This document shows, piece by piece, positions 2,511 through 34,604 of a DNA stretch of 61,436 nucleotides (position 1 is the stretch's first letter; the number at the start of each line of letters is the position of its first letter). The notes under the pieces are model-generated. The model searched no databases and had not been told where the DNA came from. It worked only from the letters and a program-made list of their open reading frames with translations. Made by a program: the position numbers and the translations under genes. This DNA comes from a virus, in the UHGV virus genome UHGV-0213688; one strand, written 5' to 3'.

Positions 2511-3476
2511 ATGCCAGAGGGTATTTATATAAACTACAATGACGGCAGACCTGCAATGCAGATAACAGCAGGATTACGCGCCCCGTCTTTTTGCGCCAAC
2601 TTCAATCAACGCTGTCAATCCGATAAAACTCTAACCATCAATACACCTTTAACGCCGGGATCGCAGCTTATCGTTGTTATGACTAACCCCGTTGAAGTAT
2701 TAGAAGTATTTGATCAGACGCTAGTTATCCCTGATCCAATGTATGTAACGTCTGTAACTCGAAACGGTGACGGTGGGGTGACGTTGCGAGGCGCGGATGG
2801 ACTTAGCGCTTATAGTGGATTGCCGCAATGGGCAGGGGTAATTATGGAAGTGTTACCTGTAGGAACGCGAAACGAGGGTCTATTTGTAGCTAACTCCACG
2901 GACTTCACAGCAATATCCAACGCAGCCTTTCTCATGACTTGTCAGTATTCCCAGTACGTGTGGGTTAACGGCAGTATGCCATTGCCCGTGGGGGGTATTC
3001 CGTTTGCTCGCTGGAACGACCCTAACGTGTCAGTAGGTTTTGATGGTTCAAATATTATTGTGCGAAATGCAGCGTATGGCGGAATTGATGATGTATCCGC
3101 TTCGGTTGGCATGGAGTTGGTAATATTTAATAACACGCCCCCACAGCCTGGTGAGGGTATCACCATGACGAACAACGCCGGACAGGTAACGTTCTCCACT
3201 GTTAAGAAGCCGTTTGTATTCAACGGGACAGTGAACCTTAGCGCTGGTTGGCAGAATATTGGAAATAGCTTGATACAGCTTTCGTACACGGGTACGCTTA
3301 TTGAAAACAATAGCGGTTATAATCATATACGCATGAACGGGATCCGCATGGCGGATAATGTGGTAGGTGCTGCAAGAAACCGCGTGGTAGGTAACTACTC
3401 ACGTCAACAATTCCAGTTGCCTGGTCGCAACGTTGTCATCCCAACACCCCTTATAGTCATACCAAATATGTATTAA
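2511..3476 (+). CDS. hypothetical protein, divergently oriented inside tail module
   Basis: ORF 2475..3476; preferred ATG 2511 (MPEGIY) with GGAG 6 nt upstream; followed by bidirectional terminator. Confidence 0.55.
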   Translation: MPEGIYINYNDGRPAMQITAGLRAPSFCANFNQRCQSDKTLTINTPLTPGSQLIVVMTNPVEVLEVFDQTLVIPDPMYVTSVTRNGDGGVTLRGADGLSAYSGLPQWAGVIMEVLPVGTRNEGLFVANSTDFTAISNAAFLMTCQYSQYVWVNGSMPLPVGGIPFARWNDPNVSVGFDGSNIIVRNAAYGGIDDVSASVGMELVIFNNTPPQPGEGITMTNNAGQVTFSTVKKPFVFNGTVNLSAGWQNIGNSLIQLSYTGTLIENNSGYNHIRMNGIRMADNVVGAARNRVVGNYSRQQFQLPGRNVVIPTPLIVIPNMY

Positions 3477-3509: not shown

Positions 3510-6161
3510 TTACCAGCGCCCTACTATGACAACACCACCGCCAGATAACGGAACACGAATTCCATTACTATCAATCGTAATACCTCCATTTCCGGTGAAG
3601 CCAAATTGTCCAGCATTAGCAACGATGGTCCCTCTTGCAATTATGTTATTCACATGGAAATATCCGTCTTTAGTAATTGCCCAGCCTTGATCATTACCAT
3701 TCCAGTTATAGGATTGAATAATATTACCTATCTTGGCATTGGTAATTGAGCCGTTCTCAATAAAAGCTTCTTGTAAGAAACTTTGACCGTTTTTAATAGC
3801 AAAAGCAAGCTGTGCTGCTCCCGCTACAGGGTTATAAATAGCGAAGTTGTCCGCACTCACCATGAAGTAAGACTGGAATTGTCCTCCGCTACCTTCGATA
3901 CCTAACTGCATACCTGCAACATATTTGTTACCATTATTGTCAATCTGAACTTTTTGACCCCATTGAGCGGAAAGTTTTCCGTTAAGGTCCGCTAGTGCTT
4001 GTGACTGTCCTTGCACGGTGGCAACAACATTACCCACACTTGTCTGAACAGAATCTATCTTGGAAGCTTGACCTTCTACCACTTTGGATAATTCTGTTAC
4101 ACCGTCATCAACCTTTTGCACAGTCTCCATGAGGTTTTTGAAAGTCTCAGTTTCTTGAAACTCTTTATCCATGATTTCTATAATCTGTGCGGTTTCTGCC
4201 CATACACGAGCTTCAACTTCCACAAACGCGGACGAGCCAAAGGCGTTGATAGTTCTTATATACCAGTAATAAGTGTGGTCATTGAGTAAGTTATTTTTCT
4301 GCCATATAGTTCCCATACCTTCACGGGTAGCATCACGCTCAACAACATCTGTATTAGCAGATGCCAGTTTTGTTTCACCAGACGTCCAGAAATCAAATTG
4401 CGTGCTAACACTAGTCAGCTCTGCAATCTTTGGTATAAGAGTTAAAGAAAAATAACCGTTCTGTATCTCGACAGATGAAGGCGGCGGTGGAGCTTGAATA
4501 TTAAACTCCAGATAAGCTTCCGGTGATATTGCACCGCTGTGAGATACAGCTTGAACGTGCGCAGTATAGGCCCCACGAAGCAGCCCAGTAACACGAACGC
4601 TTTGGCCAGGGACTTGTGCGGTCCAAATAGTAACGCCTCCCTGTCGCACAGCTACGCGGTTATATGCGACTTGCCCCATGTTTGTCCAGGATAATACCCC
4701 CTGTACCACATCACTGATTTGCAATATCTGGTATTGAAGATTTTGAGGTTGAGCAACACCACCACTTGGCAAGTCTACAAGATCCGGTCTGTCCATAGGT
4801 TTACCAATTGCATCGTCCCACATTTCCAGGAAATCTTGACGTAATGTAAGGTTAACACCACCTTTAGGGTTAAAAGACCATTTGGTAACGCGCATTTCAA
4901 CATTCTTCATGCCAATCTGCGTAATGGTAACTTTTACATACATTCCTGGACGGAACTTATAACCCTTCATGTTACAAGGGATTTCAATTGTACGTCCAAC
5001 ACGTTTACGACGTAGAATAATATTAGACAAACGTTGTGCCTGATATTCACTAGTTACAAAACGAAAATCCATGTCCTGAGTTATTTCCCCGCCATCCTTT
5101 TCCACCCATTCCTTAACCACAACTGGGGGGAAGTCTGCTTCAACGTAGTTCTGCTTCGGATCAATAAATGTCCCTGTGATGGTGTTTGTGCGCTCCTTAT
5201 AAGAAGTCTCTGGAACAATCTTAATATCCCCAGCAATACAACTTTCGTCCAGCGTCATTGTTGCTGGACCGTAATATGCGCCAACCAGAAGACCGTGTTT
5301 ACCCGCCACATACGTTAGCTCGCCACCACAAGCTTGCAACATAGCATCCAGAATTTTGGAGGGGGCTTCATCTACTTCAAATTCACCGTTAATTTTATAA
5401 CGGCGCTCTGTAGAACCATCAGCGTTATTGACGTATTCATCACAGATGTTAGCAGCTTCTTTGAACTGGTCCCAGTTAATATCTTCATCTTTTCGCTTTA
5501 AATACGTGCGGAAGTAATCAAGTATTACTAAAGCTGCATTATCGCTAAATATGGTATAGCCAGAACGAGGATCATATACACGGCGTCCTCTTTTAAGAAG
5601 CTTAATGTTTGGCAAACCAGAAGGGAATTTTTCTGCATTAAATTTAAAGCTAATGCGAAGCCATGCAATCCCTTTCCCAATCATATCCTCTTTCCAGGAA
5701 GGGCAATTGCTTAACATGAATGGATCTACAGTCTGACGGTCGTTATGAAATTCCCAAGTAACATACTGTTCGAAAGTCTGTACAAGATCATCCCCAAGCC
5801 AAATATCACCAATCCCCTCCAATGGATGTGAAGCTACAACAAGCGCCATATGCAGGAGTTCGTCTTCGTCTTGATCACCAGGCTGCTCCTCGGCAAACGT
5901 CATAACACCGGAAGCAACCGTTGTCCCGTATACTACTGTTCGGGACGCTGCGGCTGCTCGTAAAACCTGCTTACGCTCTTGTTGACCTTTATAAGCATTA
6001 AAGTTCATATTAGGTGTCTTAGTTAAAAGAGCACCTGCCGCAGTTGCAGCCATACCAATAGCCAAAGCTACGCCCGTAGCAATCCACCCCGCCGCAGCGG
6101 CAGCGGAAGCACCTAAAGCTATTGCTGCTCCAATTATTGCTGGTGGCATTAGACCCTCCAA
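3510..6161 (-). CDS. tail tip / host-specificity protein (central fibre, J-like)
   Basis: 883 aa; last gene of the tape-measure-distal tail set; hydrophobic Ala/Gly-rich N-terminus, repeated beta-rich C-terminal region; 13-nt overlap with upstream gene. Confidence 0.65.
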   Translation of the reverse strand: MEGLMPPAIIGAAIALGASAAAAAGWIATGVALAIGMAATAAGALLTKTPNMNFNAYKGQQERKQVLRAAAASRTVVYGTTVASGVMTFAEEQPGDQDEDELLHMALVVASHPLEGIGDIWLGDDLVQTFEQYVTWEFHNDRQTVDPFMLSNCPSWKEDMIGKGIAWLRISFKFNAEKFPSGLPNIKLLKRGRRVYDPRSGYTIFSDNAALVILDYFRTYLKRKDEDINWDQFKEAANICDEYVNNADGSTERRYKINGEFEVDEAPSKILDAMLQACGGELTYVAGKHGLLVGAYYGPATMTLDESCIAGDIKIVPETSYKERTNTITGTFIDPKQNYVEADFPPVVVKEWVEKDGGEITQDMDFRFVTSEYQAQRLSNIILRRKRVGRTIEIPCNMKGYKFRPGMYVKVTITQIGMKNVEMRVTKWSFNPKGGVNLTLRQDFLEMWDDAIGKPMDRPDLVDLPSGGVAQPQNLQYQILQISDVVQGVLSWTNMGQVAYNRVAVRQGGVTIWTAQVPGQSVRVTGLLRGAYTAHVQAVSHSGAISPEAYLEFNIQAPPPPSSVEIQNGYFSLTLIPKIAELTSVSTQFDFWTSGETKLASANTDVVERDATREGMGTIWQKNNLLNDHTYYWYIRTINAFGSSAFVEVEARVWAETAQIIEIMDKEFQETETFKNLMETVQKVDDGVTELSKVVEGQASKIDSVQTSVGNVVATVQGQSQALADLNGKLSAQWGQKVQIDNNGNKYVAGMQLGIEGSGGQFQSYFMVSADNFAIYNPVAGAAQLAFAIKNGQSFLQEAFIENGSITNAKIGNIIQSYNWNGNDQGWAITKDGYFHVNNIIARGTIVANAGQFGFTGNGGITIDSNGIRVPLSGGGVVIVGRW

Positions 6162-30247: not shown

Positions 30248-30574
30248 ATGAAAAAGTTCATCCGCTCTTACACTGACATCCGAGGCTTGCGAAAAGGAAC
30301 GGTTTATGAAGTTGCCGACTTCGGAAATAAAATATTGGTCCCTTATTACAATAAAGACGAAAAGCCGGTTCCAATGACCAGCGTATGCTTCACCCGCCTT
30401 ATGCAGGACAAGTTCCTTGTAGAAGTGCAACCGATGCGCAAAGAAGGCACATCCGAAATCTGGTTTGTGCACCGCCAGGAACCGGATAGTATTTGGTCCG
30501 ACTGGATAAGCGAAAAACTGTCGGGTATTATGTCCGACGATACGCTAGCCCACTTCACACCTGTACAGCTCTAA
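30248..30574 (+). CDS. hypothetical protein
   Basis: 108 aa ORF. Confidence 0.5.
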   Translation: MKKFIRSYTDIRGLRKGTVYEVADFGNKILVPYYNKDEKPVPMTSVCFTRLMQDKFLVEVQPMRKEGTSEIWFVHRQEPDSIWSDWISEKLSGIMSDDTLAHFTPVQL

Positions 30575-30953
30575 AATACTCCCGGGCCAGCCCTCCTACT
30601 GGTCCGGTTAACCGCGCAATAAAGTCCTCCTCCAATATCTCGCGATTAAGCGCATTATAGCTTGATATACCTTCCGATCACAATAGTTCAATAAATTTCC
30701 CTCAAAAGCACTTGACTTCTCATTTTTGATCTGCATCCGTTCAGGTTTATGAAAATTTATAGAGTTTATATAATGACCATAAACTCGTCAAATAATACCA
30801 ATAGGTACTATATACATTAATAATAAATCCTTATTTTATATATATTTATAGTTATTATTTACTATTAGTTTAATTATATTTGTTTTAGTTAGTTGACTGA
30901 AAGTTTATAAGTTTATAGGGAGCGAGCCAACCGAGATTTCATAAAATGCATAG

Positions 30954-31217
30954 TATAGTGGTATAGTGGCATTCACTATGTTTCACTACTACTACTAATT
31001 CTTTGTTTGAAAACGGGGTAATAAGGGGAAAACCGTAAACTTATAAACTTTGCTCTGTGTCAAAAATAAAATTAGTGAATAGTGGAATAGTGGTTTATAG
31101 TGGCAAACTTTTATAAAGCCAGTAACGGCGCACTATACACATTTTGCCCACTATGTACGCCACTAAGCACTATATTAAAACAATCCTTGCAAATAGCTAA
31201 TGTCTGTTTTATAGTGG
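30954..31217. repeat. iteron array: at least 6 direct and 4 inverted copies of core ATAGTGG
   Basis: direct copies at 30954, 30962, 31078, 31086, 31097, 31210; inverted CACTAT at 30974, 31131, 31149, 31169; flanked by inverted AAGTTTATAAGTTTA (30900 and 31035) in a 640-bp AT-rich ORF-free region. Confidence 0.6.
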
Positions 31218-31242
31218 CTTCACCAGTTGACTAGGAGGATTT

Positions 31243-31986
31243 ATGAGCGAAGAAACTATCACATCCGCACCATTAACATCTAAAACTGTGGTTAAAGATC
31301 TGTGTTTTGCTGCGTGGGTTGTGCAAGCTTGCTCGCAGTTGCGCGGTGCGCCAACCAAATCACAGGCGCTTGCTATGGTGGAGGATTACTTCAACGAAGA
31401 TGTGGAACAGCCTGTTAAAAAAGCTGTAAGACAAAAAGCGGGAAAGCTGGATGCAGAACGGGCGGCTTTCCTTGCATGGGTTAGCGATAAGCTGGGACAT
31501 GAACTGGATGCCAAAGAGCTTCGCAGCTATACGGGCAAATTCAATTACCACATGGGCAAGGGTAACGACCCATATGAAGAAGCATTTAAGGTAAAAGAAG
31601 ATAAGGGTAAGGCGGGGCGCAAGGAAAACGTCGAGCTTAAAGCATGGATAGAGCGCCAAGCCTTGCTCAAAGGGGATCCTCTGACAGATAAGGAAGCGGA
31701 TAAATTGACACATCGCTGGTACAGGATGCGCCGGAGCGGCGATGTTCGGGACTGGGATAATCGCGGTCGCTGGCCTACGTGTTCCCTGCACCATTACGAA
31801 ACCGCTACCGCTATCCGTGTCAAGCTTGGCGCTCATTGGGTAGACCTTGCACTATACAGGGATGCTGAACAGGCTAAAAATATTCTTCCGAACATTGATA
31901 ATTGGCTTATTAGCTTAAGACAGGGAAGGGAGCCGCAGGACGTTATGTTAGAAGTTAGTAACCATATTATCACAACTCCGCAATAA
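31243..31986 (+). CDS. hypothetical protein, first gene after iteron region
   Basis: 247 aa; AGGAGG RBS 5 nt upstream. Confidence 0.55.
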   Translation: MSEETITSAPLTSKTVVKDLCFAAWVVQACSQLRGAPTKSQALAMVEDYFNEDVEQPVKKAVRQKAGKLDAERAAFLAWVSDKLGHELDAKELRSYTGKFNYHMGKGNDPYEEAFKVKEDKGKAGRKENVELKAWIERQALLKGDPLTDKEADKLTHRWYRMRRSGDVRDWDNRGRWPTCSLHHYETATAIRVKLGAHWVDLALYRDAEQAKNILPNIDNWLISLRQGREPQDVMLEVSNHIITTPQ

Positions 31987-32051: not shown

Positions 32052-32255
32052 ATGGATCACGAATCGGAATTTGATTTGAACTACATAACGGCAGCGGAAA
32101 TCGAAGACCGTTATGGCATATCTAAGTTTAAGATGTCGCGCATACGTGACAGCATCCCGGGCGCTATCAGAATTGCTAACCAGTACATCTACAAACGCTC
32201 CTTAGCAGTGCCCGTTCTGGAAAAGATGCAAGGCGATAAGCGTCGGAGGTCTTAA
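32052..32255 (+). CDS. small putative DNA-binding protein (HTH-like)
   Basis: ORF 31998..32255; preferred ATG 32052 with GGAGGG; ITAAEIEDRYGISKFKMSRIRDS resembles a helix-turn-helix. Confidence 0.4.
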   Translation: MDHESEFDLNYITAAEIEDRYGISKFKMSRIRDSIPGAIRIANQYIYKRSLAVPVLEKMQGDKRRRS

Positions 32256-32261
32256 TTAAAT

Positions 32262-34604
32262 ATGGAACTGTTTCCCGCTGAAATTAAAGCTTTCCCACAA
32301 TGGGCGGTCGCCGATGCGGATAAAAAGCCTCTTGTATGGGACAACGATATTGGACGTTTGATGGCGGCGGACGTTACCGATCCGGATATGCTTATGACGT
32401 TTGAAGCTGCCAAAGGTTGCGCCGCGCATTTCAACAAACCTTATATTGGCTTTGTGCTTACTGCACAAGACCCGTTCACCTGCATCGATCTGGATGTGAA
32501 GAACGCGACCAATGAACCTGATCCCAAGAAGCACACGACGCCGGAACAGTTGCGCCGCTTCGAACAGATCATGACTGCGTTCGATACTTACACCGAAGTA
32601 AGTCGCTCAGGTTTGGGTGTCCACCTGTGGTTAAGAGGTAACATCGGTAAAGGTCGCCGACGTGATGGTGTCGAGGTTTATAGTCAGGAGCGTTTTATTA
32701 TCTGCACGGGCAATCCTGTTTATAACAAACCAGTTGCAGAACGTGATCATTATCTTACTATGCTTGTGAATGAAATTGATCTTCAGCGCAAGACATATGA
32801 AATTGAACTGGTAGAAAAAGATCCGGTAGAAGACGATGCGACTATTCACCAGCGAGCACTTGAAGCGGACAACGGGGATAAGTATGCACGCCTATTCAAT
32901 GGCGAATGGGTTGAAATGGGATTCCCTTCCCAGTCTGAAGCAGACCTTGCCCTTATTTCTATGTATGCATTCTACACAGAAAGTAATGAGCAATGCCGTC
33001 GTCTGTTCCGTTACAGTGCACTGGGCAAACGTGAGAAGGCTAATAAGAACAATGTTCATATTGACCGTTGTTTGCGCATGTGCCGCGGTCGTATGGAGCG
33101 TGAGCGCATTGCCCAGGAAAACGTAGCGGCGCTGGCGCGGGATTACGCTGCTCGTATGCAAGCCGCACACAGTGCAATGCAGCAGGTAACGGAAATGCCT
33201 GTGATTGTCGAAACAACACAGGGGCAGACAGTAGTTGCGGAAAGTACATCCATTGATGCAACAGCTATTGACTGGCCACCGGGACTCGCTGGGGAGCTTG
33301 CGAAGTACATCTACAAAGCATCCGTCCGACCAGTAAAAGAAATCTCTATTGTGACTGCGCTCGGCTTTATGGCTGGGGTATGCGGGAAAGTATGGCAGAT
33401 TCCGCAATCCGGTCTTAATGGTTATTTTGTCTTAATTGCTCGTTCTGGTGTTGGTAAAGAGACGTTGAACAGTGGGCTGTCTAATATAGTTAGCCAGATT
33501 CAGGACCAGTTTCCGCAGATTCATAGCTTTGTATCTTTTGACAGATGCGCTTCTGGATCTGCACTGCGTAAATCTTTTGCAGACAAACAATCTTTTATCA
33601 ACTTGAACGGTGAGTTTGGTAAGATTATCAAAGCAATGGCAACGGCTCCAGCAGGATCGCCGATGCAAAGTTTCAAGAATGACCTTACCGATGTTTATCA
33701 AAAGTCCGGTCAGATGTCTATCGTTGGTGGTATGTCTTATTCTGATAAGGCTAATAATACTGAAGCTCAACAAGGTGTGGCATATAGCATCATGGGCGAA
33801 ACGACACCGGATACGTTCTTTGAAGCATTAACCCGTGAAATGATGGAGGACGGATTCTTATCCCGTTTCCATGTTGTACGCTATGAAGGTGATCGACCAC
33901 CTTTAAACAAAAATCAGCAGACTACAATGGATCAGCATTTGAAGGACATGGTGTGCCATCTTGTTAACCACACTTTAGTAACAATGGCAAAGCATCAGAG
34001 TATTGAAGTACAGTTTAGCCCGGATGCGGAAACATTATGCGATCAGTTTAACGATGAATGTGATCGCAATATTAACGCAACCAAAGACGAAGCGATCCGT
34101 CAGCCGTGGAACCGTGCTCACCTGAAGGTCTTGCGACTTTCTGCCTTGTTAGCTGTGGGTGAGAACTGGATCAATCCGGTGGTACAAACCTATCATGTGC
34201 AATGGGCTTTGGACTTCGTGCGTCATGGGCAGGATATTATTATGAAGGAATGGCATAGCGGAGGCATTGGGACTAATGATGAAGCTCGTATCCGTACTAT
34301 GTGTCAGGTCTGTGTGAATTATCTAACTAAAGACTGGGTGAAAGTTAAACGTGTAGATTTGCGCAAAGAAGGTATTATCACGCGGGGTGATATTACTACG
34401 CGTCTTGCAAGTAAGTCCGCGTTTAAAAACTATCATCACGGATTATCCGCTGCAATCGAGTCTACAATCAAGGAGATGGTTGCTATGGGTGCACTTGTTC
34501 CGGTAACACGGGAGGAGACTATTAAACTGGGATTTACTGGGGCAGCTTGGCGCATTACGCAAGATGTTGAAGGAATTATGGCAAACTTAGGTGAAGAGGA
34601 ATAA
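32262..34604 (+). CDS. DNA primase/helicase (PrimPol-type primase domain + P-loop helicase domain)
   Basis: 780 aa; N-terminal DLD and SRSGLGVHLW motifs; central phage/plasmid primase-like region; Walker-A-like ARSGVGKET. Confidence 0.7.
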   Translation: MELFPAEIKAFPQWAVADADKKPLVWDNDIGRLMAADVTDPDMLMTFEAAKGCAAHFNKPYIGFVLTAQDPFTCIDLDVKNATNEPDPKKHTTPEQLRRFEQIMTAFDTYTEVSRSGLGVHLWLRGNIGKGRRRDGVEVYSQERFIICTGNPVYNKPVAERDHYLTMLVNEIDLQRKTYEIELVEKDPVEDDATIHQRALEADNGDKYARLFNGEWVEMGFPSQSEADLALISMYAFYTESNEQCRRLFRYSALGKREKANKNNVHIDRCLRMCRGRMERERIAQENVAALARDYAARMQAAHSAMQQVTEMPVIVETTQGQTVVAESTSIDATAIDWPPGLAGELAKYIYKASVRPVKEISIVTALGFMAGVCGKVWQIPQSGLNGYFVLIARSGVGKETLNSGLSNIVSQIQDQFPQIHSFVSFDRCASGSALRKSFADKQSFINLNGEFGKIIKAMATAPAGSPMQSFKNDLTDVYQKSGQMSIVGGMSYSDKANNTEAQQGVAYSIMGETTPDTFFEALTREMMEDGFLSRFHVVRYEGDRPPLNKNQQTTMDQHLKDMVCHLVNHTLVTMAKHQSIEVQFSPDAETLCDQFNDECDRNINATKDEAIRQPWNRAHLKVLRLSALLAVGENWINPVVQTYHVQWALDFVRHGQDIIMKEWHSGGIGTNDEARIRTMCQVCVNYLTKDWVKVKRVDLRKEGIITRGDITTRLASKSAFKNYHHGLSAAIESTIKEMVAMGALVPVTREETIKLGFTGAAWRITQDVEGIMANLGEEE

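What the first reader, a model, noticed from the sequence alone, without database searches (positions are those of the whole stretch)
30700..31242. AT-rich 640-bp ORF-free region with an ordered iteron array (candidate origin or regulatory hub)
At least six direct copies of ATAGTGG and four inverted copies (CACTAT) are clustered here, some in tandem (TATAGTGGTATAGTGG; AATAGTGGAATAGTGG). Two inverted copies of AAGTTTATAAGTTTA (30900 and 31035) flank the first cluster. The region sits directly upstream of an unknown 247-aa gene and the primase-helicase gene. This is the classic signature of iteron-type binding sites for an initiator or regulator.
Basis: seen in the sequence. Interest (0 to 1): 0.65.

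Follow-up and report, generated by a model that had tools for sequence, protein, structure and literature searches.

The report
Two-repeat replication control region, Seuratvirus
The 668-bp gap in front of this E. coli phage's replication genes carries two families of short repeats, each of which changes together with a different neighbouring protein in related phages, so it is most likely an undescribed replication origin and control region read by two proteins.

Summary
Seven of the window's nine ATAGTGG copies, and 13 TAGTG cores, lie in 30956-31216, ordered 2 direct/2 inverted, 4 direct/4 inverted, and one on the -10 of the promoter of gene 31243-31986. No shuffle in 2000 reaches this.

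The window is a Seuratvirus (Queuovirinae), 98.5% identical here to phage SeppeHuegi. Comparing 22 related loci shows two independent repeat families.

- **Family 1 (ATAGTGG)** becomes ATAGGGT or TAGGGGTA where the downstream 247-aa orphan protein is of another subtype. It becomes TGGAATAA where that gene is replaced by other small genes.
It brackets an 88-90% AT block. It becomes GTTTTG or ATTTTAT exactly in step with three alleles of the helicase/C-terminal part of the primase-helicase. That protein's first 300 residues stay 92-100% identical.

Best reading: a replication origin of the SaPI Rep / P4 alpha type, with helicase repeats around an unwinding element. Joined to it is an array for a second, new DNA-binding protein that probably also regulates its own operon.

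Neither binding nor initiation has been shown. I rate it a new variant of a known kind, of moderate interest.

The parts
30583..30608 (.). G+C-rich hairpin (CCGGGCCAG...CTGGTCCGG) ending the upstream + strand gene cluster; left boundary of the control region
   Evidence: Sequence. Annotated as a rho-independent terminator in relatives SA80RD and SA126VB. It is the second hairpin of the folded leftward transcript.
30654..30683 (-). Leftward sigma-70-like promoter TTGTGA-18-TATAAT, in a block nearly invariant in all nine aligned relatives
   Evidence: 10 of 12 matches; alignment A3. Its function was not tested.
30743..30790 (+). Family-2 left set: three direct (G/A)TTTAT at 30745, 30755 and 30764, spaced 9-10 bp, plus one inverted copy at 30779
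   Evidence: Replaced copy for copy by GTTTTG or ATTTTAT in phages with another primase-helicase allele, while flanking DNA stays 78-98% identical.
30791..30893 (.). AT-rich block (up to 90% A+T), largely conserved among relatives; candidate DNA unwinding element; the cumulative G-C minimum of the window falls at 30830
   Evidence: alignment A3.
30900..30917 (+). Family-2 right set, arm L: tandem AAGTTTAT AAGTTTAT (left arm of the 16-bp perfect inverted repeat)
   Evidence: Changes to AGTTTTAGGTTTTTGG in type II phages, together with arm R.
30951..30990 (.). Family-1 cluster 1: two direct (A)TAGTGG then two inverted copies
31035..31052 (-). Family-2 arm R: inverted tandem copy (TAAACTTATAAACTTT)
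   Evidence: Degenerate in CAjan (72% identical to the window), so a base-paired stem is not conserved.
31071..31176 (.). Family-1 cluster 2: four direct copies (31073-31102), a 28-bp centre holding the element AAGCCAGTAACGGCG (nearly invariant in the class A relatives aligned), then four inverted copies (31131-31172)
   Evidence: (I1).
31187..31217 (+). Promoter-like site TTGCAA-17-TATAGT; its -10 hexamer is the last family-1 copy (ATAGTGG, 31211-31217)
   Evidence: sequence. AGGAGG ribosome site at 31233-31238.
31243..31986 (+). Gene for the 247-aa orphan protein (phrog_27223): three helical hairpins plus a C-terminal beta-beta-beta-alpha-alpha domain; candidate reader of family 1
32052..32255 (+). 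Gene for a 67-aa protein (phrog_11967) that may be helix-turn-helix-like, present in all module types; does not track either repeat family
   Evidence: The only domain hint is a non-significant HTH_17 match (E = 0.075) in a relative's homologue.
32262..34604 (+). Primase-helicase: AEP primase-polymerase, MCM-like AAA+ helicase and a C-terminal winged-helix-like domain (roughly aa 668-780, i.e. 34263-34601); candidate reader of family 2

Best explanation
The region 30743-31217 is a composite replication origin and control region read by two different phage proteins.

**Family 2.** The hexamers (A/G)GTTTAT lie on both sides of an AT-rich block. I infer that they are iterons for the C-terminal winged-helix-like domain of the primase-helicase encoded 1.4 kb downstream. 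That protein would assemble on both sides, melt the AT-rich block and load itself, as SaPI Rep proteins and P4 alpha do.

**Family 1.** The heptamers ATAGTGG form two head-to-head arrays (2+2 and 4+4), with one further copy on the -10 of the operon promoter. I infer that they are bound by the 247-aa protein encoded immediately downstream. This protein belongs to an orphan family built of repeated helical hairpins. The arrays would form a nucleoprotein complex next to the origin core and would repress or time transcription of the replication operon.

**Shown:** the repeats, their order and their excess over chance; the concerted replacement of each family in relatives; its strict association with one protein or protein segment; and independent assortment of the two families.

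**Inferred:** which protein binds which repeat, DNA melting, and that replication starts here.
For: 1. **Repeat excess and order**.
2. **Family 1 and the downstream protein.** The repeat is ATAGTGG in 10 loci whose downstream protein is subtype A. It is ATAGGGT or TAGGGGTA in 6 loci with subtype B (43% identical). It is TGGAATAA in 6 loci where the gene is replaced by other small genes.
3. **An independent replicate.** L021 and L019 have 99-100% identical primase-helicases, yet carry subtype A with TAGTG and subtype B with TAGGG respectively.
4. **Which part of the 247-aa protein tracks the repeat.** Only residues 66-116 follow the repeat class: identity is 50-98% within a class and 36-46% between classes.
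5. **The 67-aa protein does not track it.** In L019 (TAGGG) its middle stretch, where I would place a recognition helix, is nearly identical to the window's (TAGTG).
[quoted passage not shown] Each allele is combined with two or three family-1 classes. Allele III was predicted from the repeats before its sequence was examined.
7. **Linkage alone does not explain this.** DNA between the family-2 sets, and residues 1-300 of the primase, stay 78-100% identical across alleles.
9. **Other consistent features.** The AT peak of 88-90% and the window's cumulative G-C minimum at 30830 lie between the family-2 sets. One family-1 copy forms the -10 of the promoter.
Against: - No binding, melting or initiation data exist.
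- The 247-aa protein has no recognisable DNA-binding fold or domain, and its model is only moderate (pLDDT 75.6, pTM 0.42).
- Each association rests on few independent events: three alleles and three or four repeat classes, in recombining and closely related genomes. The protein segment that tracks family 1 is also the part of the gene nearest the repeats, so linkage contributes.
- The G-C curve is nearly flat from 27.5 to 30.5 kb, and skew also follows transcription direction.
- Dru_SM1 carries a GGAATA block without the class C proteins.
- In SaPIs the origin lies just downstream of rep, not upstream of the operon.
Confidence: 0.6

Rival explanations
1. This is a transcription control region only. 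The ATAGTGG arrays are operators for a phage regulator (the 247-aa protein) that switches the replication operon's promoter on or off. Replication starts elsewhere, or only at the AGTTTAT/AT-rich core, and the array has no part in initiation.
For: One copy forms the -10 of the TTGCAA-17-TATAGT promoter directly upstream of the gene. In SA80RD-type phages the inverted copies abut a TATAAT promoter annotated by the depositors. Head-to-head arrays resemble operators. pRN1 has an analogous operon, with a small repressor gene ahead of the primase-helicase gene (abstract).
Against: Thirteen sites spread over 260 bp are far more than a single promoter needs. Cluster 1 is enclosed by family-2 sites, so it is physically interleaved with the candidate origin core. 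No known regulator fold is detected. This reading is not exclusive of the best explanation: plasmid initiators commonly do both.
Confidence: 0.25
2. The repeats reflect a structured RNA or a DNA cruciform. The 16-bp inverted repeat would close a 120-nt domain and the direct/inverted heptamers would form hairpins. On this reading they are not protein-binding sites.
For: The 30895-31056 stretch folds better than shuffles as single-stranded DNA (-19.2 kcal/mol, z = -2.74). The arms of the inverted repeat change together between type I and type II phages.
Against: There is no Rfam match. In CAjan, Seurat and SLUR76 the right arm is degenerate and no longer complementary (72% identical to the window's arm). 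The arms are made of the same word that occurs as direct repeats in the left set, and it changes there too. Seven of the thirteen family-1 copies are direct repeats, which pairing does not explain. A z-score of -2.7 is expected for any sequence holding inverted repeats.
Confidence: 0.04
3. The ATAGTGG copies are tandem -10 promoter elements (TATAGT), or the region is a packaging (pac/cos) site bound by the small terminase.
For: TATAGT matches TATAAT in 5 of 6 positions, and two promoter-like sites use a repeat copy as their -10. Pac sites can contain short repeats (general knowledge).
Against: In class B phages the word is TATAGG(G), which lacks the essential final T of a -10, yet number and order are kept. 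Six of the 13 copies face the other way. The region lies among replication genes, at least 5 kb from the structural-gene block that ends near 25.7 kb, and the repeats co-vary with replication-module proteins.
Confidence: 0.03

Closest known systems
SaPI replication origins and Rep / PriRep5 self-loading helicases (Staphylococcus aureus pathogenicity islands)
   Same: The initiator combines a primase, a hexameric helicase and a C-terminal winged-helix domain. The origin has 6-12 short (5-6 nt) iterons on both sides of a central AT-rich region, and iteron sequence is matched to the Rep type (PMC9371898). Here the AEP domain matches PriRep5 (7ola, E = 7e-11). About nine hexamers bracket an AT-rich block, and they co-vary with the helicase/C-terminal allele.
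   Different: The SaPI origin lies immediately downstream of rep; here the region is 1.4 kb upstream, ahead of the operon. SaPIs have no second repeat family and no second specific protein. Binding and melting are demonstrated for SaPIs and not here.
Satellite phage P4: alpha protein with ori and crr
   Same: A single polypeptide carries a primase, a helicase and a C-terminal winged-helix origin-binding domain (PMC2777425). From my own knowledge, it binds short octamer repeats present in both direct and inverted orientation in two separated clusters.
   Different: P4 alpha has a DnaG-type primase and an SF3 helicase. Here the primase is an AEP primase-polymerase and the helicase is MCM-like. 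P4 uses one repeat family and one protein; here there are two families and a second candidate protein.
Iteron plasmids and phage lambda ori/O (RepA, RepE, Pi, lambda O)
   Same: Repeated initiator-binding sites lie next to an AT-rich unwinding element, adjacent to or inside the initiator gene. Inverted copies at the initiator's promoter give autoregulation (review PMC4980987, listed, and general knowledge).
   Different: Classical iterons are 17-22 bp long and phased at about 22 bp, and are read by winged-helix Rep proteins. Here the words are 6-7 bp, spaced 7-10 bp apart. The candidate protein has no detectable winged-helix or any other known fold. No DnaA boxes or IHF sites are present.
Archaeal plasmid pRN1 replication operon orf56/orf904
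   Different: ORF56 is a small CopG-type repressor acting at one promoter site, and the pRN1 origin lies downstream of orf904. Here there is a 247-aa orphan protein with 13 sites.

Membership tests
Iteron-type replication origin (general) | Cluster of short repeated words far above chance, confined to one non-coding region | tested here: met
   Seven of nine ATAGTGG copies lie in 281 bp (P = 1.5e-15). TAGTG occurs 13 times against 1.47 expected, and GTTTAT 7 times against 1.11; no shuffle in 2000 reaches either count. This is the only such cluster in the window.
Iteron-type replication origin (general) | Adjacent AT-rich DNA unwinding element | tested here: met
   AT content is 88-90% in 30801-30875. 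The block is largely conserved in relatives and lies between the family-2 sets. Melting itself was not tested.
Iteron-type replication origin (general) | Repeats are bound by a cognate initiator encoded nearby | not testable with these tools
   The evidence is indirect only: concerted change of the repeats with the 247-aa protein subtype and with the primase-helicase allele.
Iteron-type replication origin (general) | Replication initiates at the site | not testable with these tools
   The cumulative G-C minimum of the window at 30830 is consistent, but the curve is flat from 27.5 to 30.5 kb.
Classical plasmid/lambda iterons | Repeats of 17-22 bp phased at about two helical turns, read by a winged-helix Rep or lambda O-type protein | tested here: not met
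   The words are 6-7 bp long with centre-to-centre spacings of 7-10 bp within the direct arrays (7-18 bp among the inverted copies of cluster 2). The 247-aa protein shows no winged-helix or other known fold.
SaPI Rep / P4 alpha-type origin (self-loading primase-helicase) | Initiator with a primase, a hexameric helicase and a C-terminal winged-helix DNA-binding domain | tested here: met
SaPI Rep / P4 alpha-type origin (self-loading primase-helicase) | Six to twelve penta- or hexanucleotide iterons on both sides of a central AT-rich region | tested here: met
   Left of the AT-rich block: 30745+, 30755+, 30764+, 30779-. Right of it: 30903+, 30911+, 31036-, 31043-, 31093+.
SaPI Rep / P4 alpha-type origin (self-loading primase-helicase) | At least two iterons on each side pointing in opposite directions | tested here: inconclusive
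   Both sides hold copies in both orientations, but the two sides are not simple mirror images: + + + - on the left and + + ... - - on the right.
SaPI Rep / P4 alpha-type origin (self-loading primase-helicase) | Iteron sequence specific to the cognate helicase C-terminal domain | tested here: met
   Three alleles correspond to three words in 20 of 20 loci. Each allele is combined with two or three family-1 classes, and the third allele was predicted from the repeats. This is co-variation, not binding.
SaPI Rep / P4 alpha-type origin (self-loading primase-helicase) | [quoted passage not shown] | tested here: not met
   The region lies 1.4 kb upstream of the primase-helicase gene, ahead of the operon.
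Autoregulated operator array | Binding sites overlap the promoter of the binding protein's own gene | tested here: met
   The -10 of TTGCAA-17-TATAGT (31187-31215) is the ATAGTGG copy at 31211-31217, 26 bp before the start codon. This is a consensus match only; promoter activity was not tested.
Known RNA families | Match to an Rfam covariance model | tested here: not met
   No match with E up to 1 in 30400-31400 on either strand.

The most novel reading that the evidence does not exclude
Seuratvirus origins may be 'two-key' origins. On this reading firing needs two independent sequence-specific readers, which recombination shuffles freely among co-circulating phages to give at least eight lock-and-key combinations seen here. 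The second is a new kind of DNA-binding protein built of tandem helical hairpins of about 37 aa, in which one hairpin (residues 66-116) sets the heptamer read. The combinations would then define replicon specificity groups that matter in mixed infections.
Probability: 0.25. Interest if true: 0.75.

Novelty: new variant of a known kind. Interest (0 to 1): 0.55.

Why it matters
I found no description of a replication origin for the Queuovirinae, the phages with 7-deazaguanine-modified DNA that are used in studies of defence systems and phage therapy. The library search for iterons in this group returned nothing.

The analysis gives an exact, testable map: which 6-7-bp words there are, where they lie, and which protein should read each. 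It also supplies natural specificity swaps (ATAGTGG / ATAGGGT / TGGAATAA and GTTTAT / GTTTTG / ATTTTAT) that can serve as ready-made controls.

The analysis points to an orphan protein family as a sequence-specific DNA binder with an unrecognised fold. Only two representative clusters exist among 1.84 billion.

It also shows that the widespread phage primase-helicase family, with more than 1500 members at E <= 1e-10, carries exchangeable origin-recognition alleles behind a constant primase domain. If confirmed, the region would be useful for building phage-dependent replicons and for understanding replication incompatibility between related virulent phages.

Tried and rejected
2. **Domain and homologue searches for the 247-aa protein.** Pfam found nothing at E <= 0.01 or at E <= 10. 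A profile search of 1.84 billion representatives found only the family itself plus a spurious BTB/BACK repeat protein.
3. **AP2-like idea for the C-terminal beta-beta-beta-alpha domain.** The class C 93-aa protein has a weak AP2 hit (E = 2e-4, below the cut-off), but BLASTP between the two finds nothing. I dropped the idea.
4. **Primase C-terminal fragment.** A database search with the 181-aa fragment returned no hits. A profile of the C-terminal domain against PDB sequences gave only chance hits.
5. **IMG/VR scan with the 247-aa protein.** This gave only 2 loci.
6. **Host-factor sites.** No DnaA box or IHF consensus is present in the intergenic region, and there are only two GATC sites there.
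7. **The 67-aa protein as reader of family 1.** Rejected, because L019 (TAGGG) is nearly identical to the window (TAGTG) in the middle stretch where I would place a recognition helix.
8. **C-terminal half of the 247-aa protein as reader of family 2, or as partner of the primase allele.** There is no consistent pattern.
9. **Structured RNA or cruciform.** See the rival explanations.

Full report
**What the window is.** The stretch 30500-31300 is 98.5% identical to Escherichia phages SeppeHuegi and phiG7, and matches 34 phage records, nearly all Seuratvirus (Queuovirinae). In the window, structural genes lie on the minus strand up to about 26 kb and replication genes on the plus strand from 31243. 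The finding lies in the 668-bp gene-free stretch 30575-31242 (34% G+C). To its left is a plus-strand gene ending at 30574. To its right are a 247-aa gene (31243-31986; phrog_27223, unknown function, no Pfam domain), a 67-aa gene (32052-32255) and the primase-helicase gene (32262-34604; NrS-1-type helix-bundle domain plus DUF3987).

- ATAGTGG occurs nine times in 61,436 bases, and seven of these lie within 30955-31217. The binomial P is 1.5e-15.
- The core TAGTG occurs 13 times in the intergenic region against 1.47 expected from dinucleotide-preserving shuffles; 0 of 2000 shuffles reach it.
- The copies are ordered. Two direct (30956, 30964) are followed by two inverted (30974, 30984). Four direct (31073-31098) are followed by four inverted (31131-31168). 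One further direct copy sits at 31212.
- The consensus is A-T-A-G-T-G-G, with TAGTG invariant.
- The 16-bp perfect inverted repeat at 30900-30915 and 31036-31051 encloses the first cluster.
- AT content reaches 88-90% at 30801-30875.

**Family 1 changes in concert with the downstream gene.** CAjan, Seurat, slur01 and SLUR76 are 94-97% identical to the window up to about 30920 and then diverge. Their intergenic region has the same architecture, but the word is ATAGGG(T), at 11-12 copies, and their downstream protein is only 43% identical.

SA80RD, Greed, CSP1, SA126VB and Dru_SM1 keep TAGTG, and their protein is 56-63% identical, with a nearly identical N-terminal third. A third group (Skure, OddieOddie, GottfriedDienst, VogelGryff, PLYYY01) has no homologue of the 247-aa gene. 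It has three small genes in its place, an 830-bp intergenic region, and the word TGGAATAA.

Metagenomic contigs add a more distant lineage. L021 (protein 68% identical to the window's) has ATAGTGG, whereas L019 (45% identical) has ATAGGGTA. Yet these two contigs have 99-100% identical primase-helicases. L018 has TAGGGGTA. So the same association appears in two backgrounds.

Within the 247-aa family, only residues 66-116 follow the repeat class: 50-98% identity within a class and 36-46% between classes. Residues 12-52 are conserved throughout, and residues 125-240 do not track.

The 67-aa protein is present in every module type, including the third. In L019 (TAGGG) its middle stretch, where I would place a recognition helix, is nearly identical to the window's (TAGTG). 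It is therefore a poor candidate reader.

**A second repeat family.** The same word occurs as three direct copies spaced 9-10 bp apart, plus one inverted copy, at 30745-30784, on the other side of the AT-rich block. GTTTAT is enriched: 7 copies against 1.1 expected, with 0 of 2000 shuffles reaching this.

In SA80RD-type and Skure-type phages every one of these copies reads GTTTTG instead. In L019, L021 and L025 they read ATTTTA(T). Meanwhile the DNA to the left of the left set is 96-98% identical in most relatives, and the AT-rich block between the sets is 78-95% identical.

Primase-helicase alignments show residues 1-300 at 92-100% identity in all. The remainder falls into three alleles: 67-80% identity in residues 300-640 and 43-49% in residues 640-780. 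In all 20 loci that include the C-terminal end, the allele predicts the word: I with GTTTAT, II with GTTTTG, III with ATTTTA. Each allele occurs with two or three different family-1 classes. The third allele was predicted from the repeats before its sequence was inspected. The two repeat families therefore assort independently, and each stays with one protein segment.

**What the proteins look like.**

**Comparison with known systems.** SaPI Rep proteins are self-loading helicases. Their C-terminal winged helix binds 5-6-nt iterons, 6-12 of them on both sides of a central AT-rich region, with Rep-specific sequences (PMC9371898). P4 alpha and pRN1 ORF904 share the order primase, helicase, winged helix (PMC2777425).

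Family 2, the AT-rich block and the primase-helicase fit this scheme in anatomy and in specificity matching. They differ in position, lying upstream of the operon rather than downstream of rep.

Family 1 and its orphan protein have no counterpart in those systems. Its words are too short and too closely spaced for classical plasmid or lambda iterons. One copy forms the -10 of the promoter TTGCAA-17-TATAGT, 26 bp before the gene, as in autoregulated initiator or repressor genes.

**Further points.**
- The cumulative G-C minimum of the whole window is at 30830, inside the AT-rich block. The curve is flat for 3 kb to the left, so this is weak support.
- No DnaA or IHF consensus site is present, and there is no Rfam match.
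- The inverted-repeat arms are not kept complementary in CAjan-type phages. This argues for binding sites rather than a stem.
- In class B phages the word (TATAGG) is a poor -10 element, so the repeats are not simply promoter elements.

**Verdict.** The repeats are real, ordered and functionally constrained.

The most probable mechanism is a SaPI/P4-like self-loading origin joined to an array for a new specific DNA-binding protein that also controls the operon promoter. I put this at about 0.6. A purely transcriptional role for the ATAGTGG array is the main alternative, at about 0.25.

I found no prior description in the searchable literature. It is a new variant of a known kind. The claims about binding, melting and initiation remain inferences, and simple experiments listed above can test them.

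Noticed in passing
window 30575-30683 (- strand): A leftward sigma-70-like promoter (TTGTGA-18-TATAAT, 30683 to 30654) sits in a block nearly invariant in all nine aligned relatives. In the window it would give a transcript of about 75 nt, folding into two hairpins (z = -3.98) and ending at the 30583-30608 hairpin. This could be a small RNA reminiscent of lambda oop. In SLUR76 and Dru_SM1 the same promoter faces an inserted minus-strand HNH endonuclease gene.
   Followed up: partly
window 32262-34604: The primase-helicase is a recombination mosaic. Residues 1-300 are 92-100% identical across all relatives, while residues 300-780 come in three alleles (43-49% identity in the last 140 residues). 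The breakpoint lies at the linker between the primase and helicase parts.
   Followed up: yes
window 31100-31234: A 44-codon GTG ORF, annotated as a hypothetical protein in SeppeHuegi and KS_A3, lies entirely inside repeat cluster 2, and the sequence beneath its 3' end is not conserved in SA80RD-type relatives. It is probably an annotation artefact.
   Followed up: partly
window 31113-31128: The element AAGCCAGTAACGGCG, at the centre of cluster 2 between the direct and inverted copies, is nearly invariant (one substitution) in the five class A relatives aligned, although the flanks vary. Its function is unknown.
   Followed up: no
L010 (Dru_SM1) 3380-3420; L013 (Skure) 4690-4740: Dru_SM1 carries the class C repeat block (TTATTCC x3, GGAATA x2) next to the leftward promoter, although it has the class A protein and TAGTG clusters. 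It may be a recombination remnant, or these sites may be read by something other than the class C small proteins.
   Followed up: no
L002, L003, L006, L010, L011, L018 around the module: HNH homing endonuclease genes are inserted at several different points around this locus in relatives: upstream of the 108-aa gene, on the minus strand next to the leftward promoter, and between the 67-aa gene and the primase gene. This suggests the locus is a hot spot for homing and module exchange.
   Followed up: no
window 30894-30899 and 30916-30928; relatives in A3: The hexamer TTGACT just left of arm L is invariant in all nine aligned relatives. Many relatives have TAGGGGTATAC just right of arm L (the window has TAGGGAGCGAGCC), and G-runs (GGGGTAATAAGGGG, 31015-31028) precede arm R. 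No good -10 follows the TTGACT, and the role of these elements is unknown.
   Followed up: no
L023 (Hafnia phage yong3) 2480-3190; L025 1873-3210: More distant relatives (primase-helicase 69-76% identical) also have a gene-free, AT-rich, repeat-bearing region of 700-1300 bp ahead of the primase-helicase operon, with other small genes in place of the 247-aa gene. Pantoea phage Vid5 (L024) shows no such gap directly upstream.
   Followed up: partly
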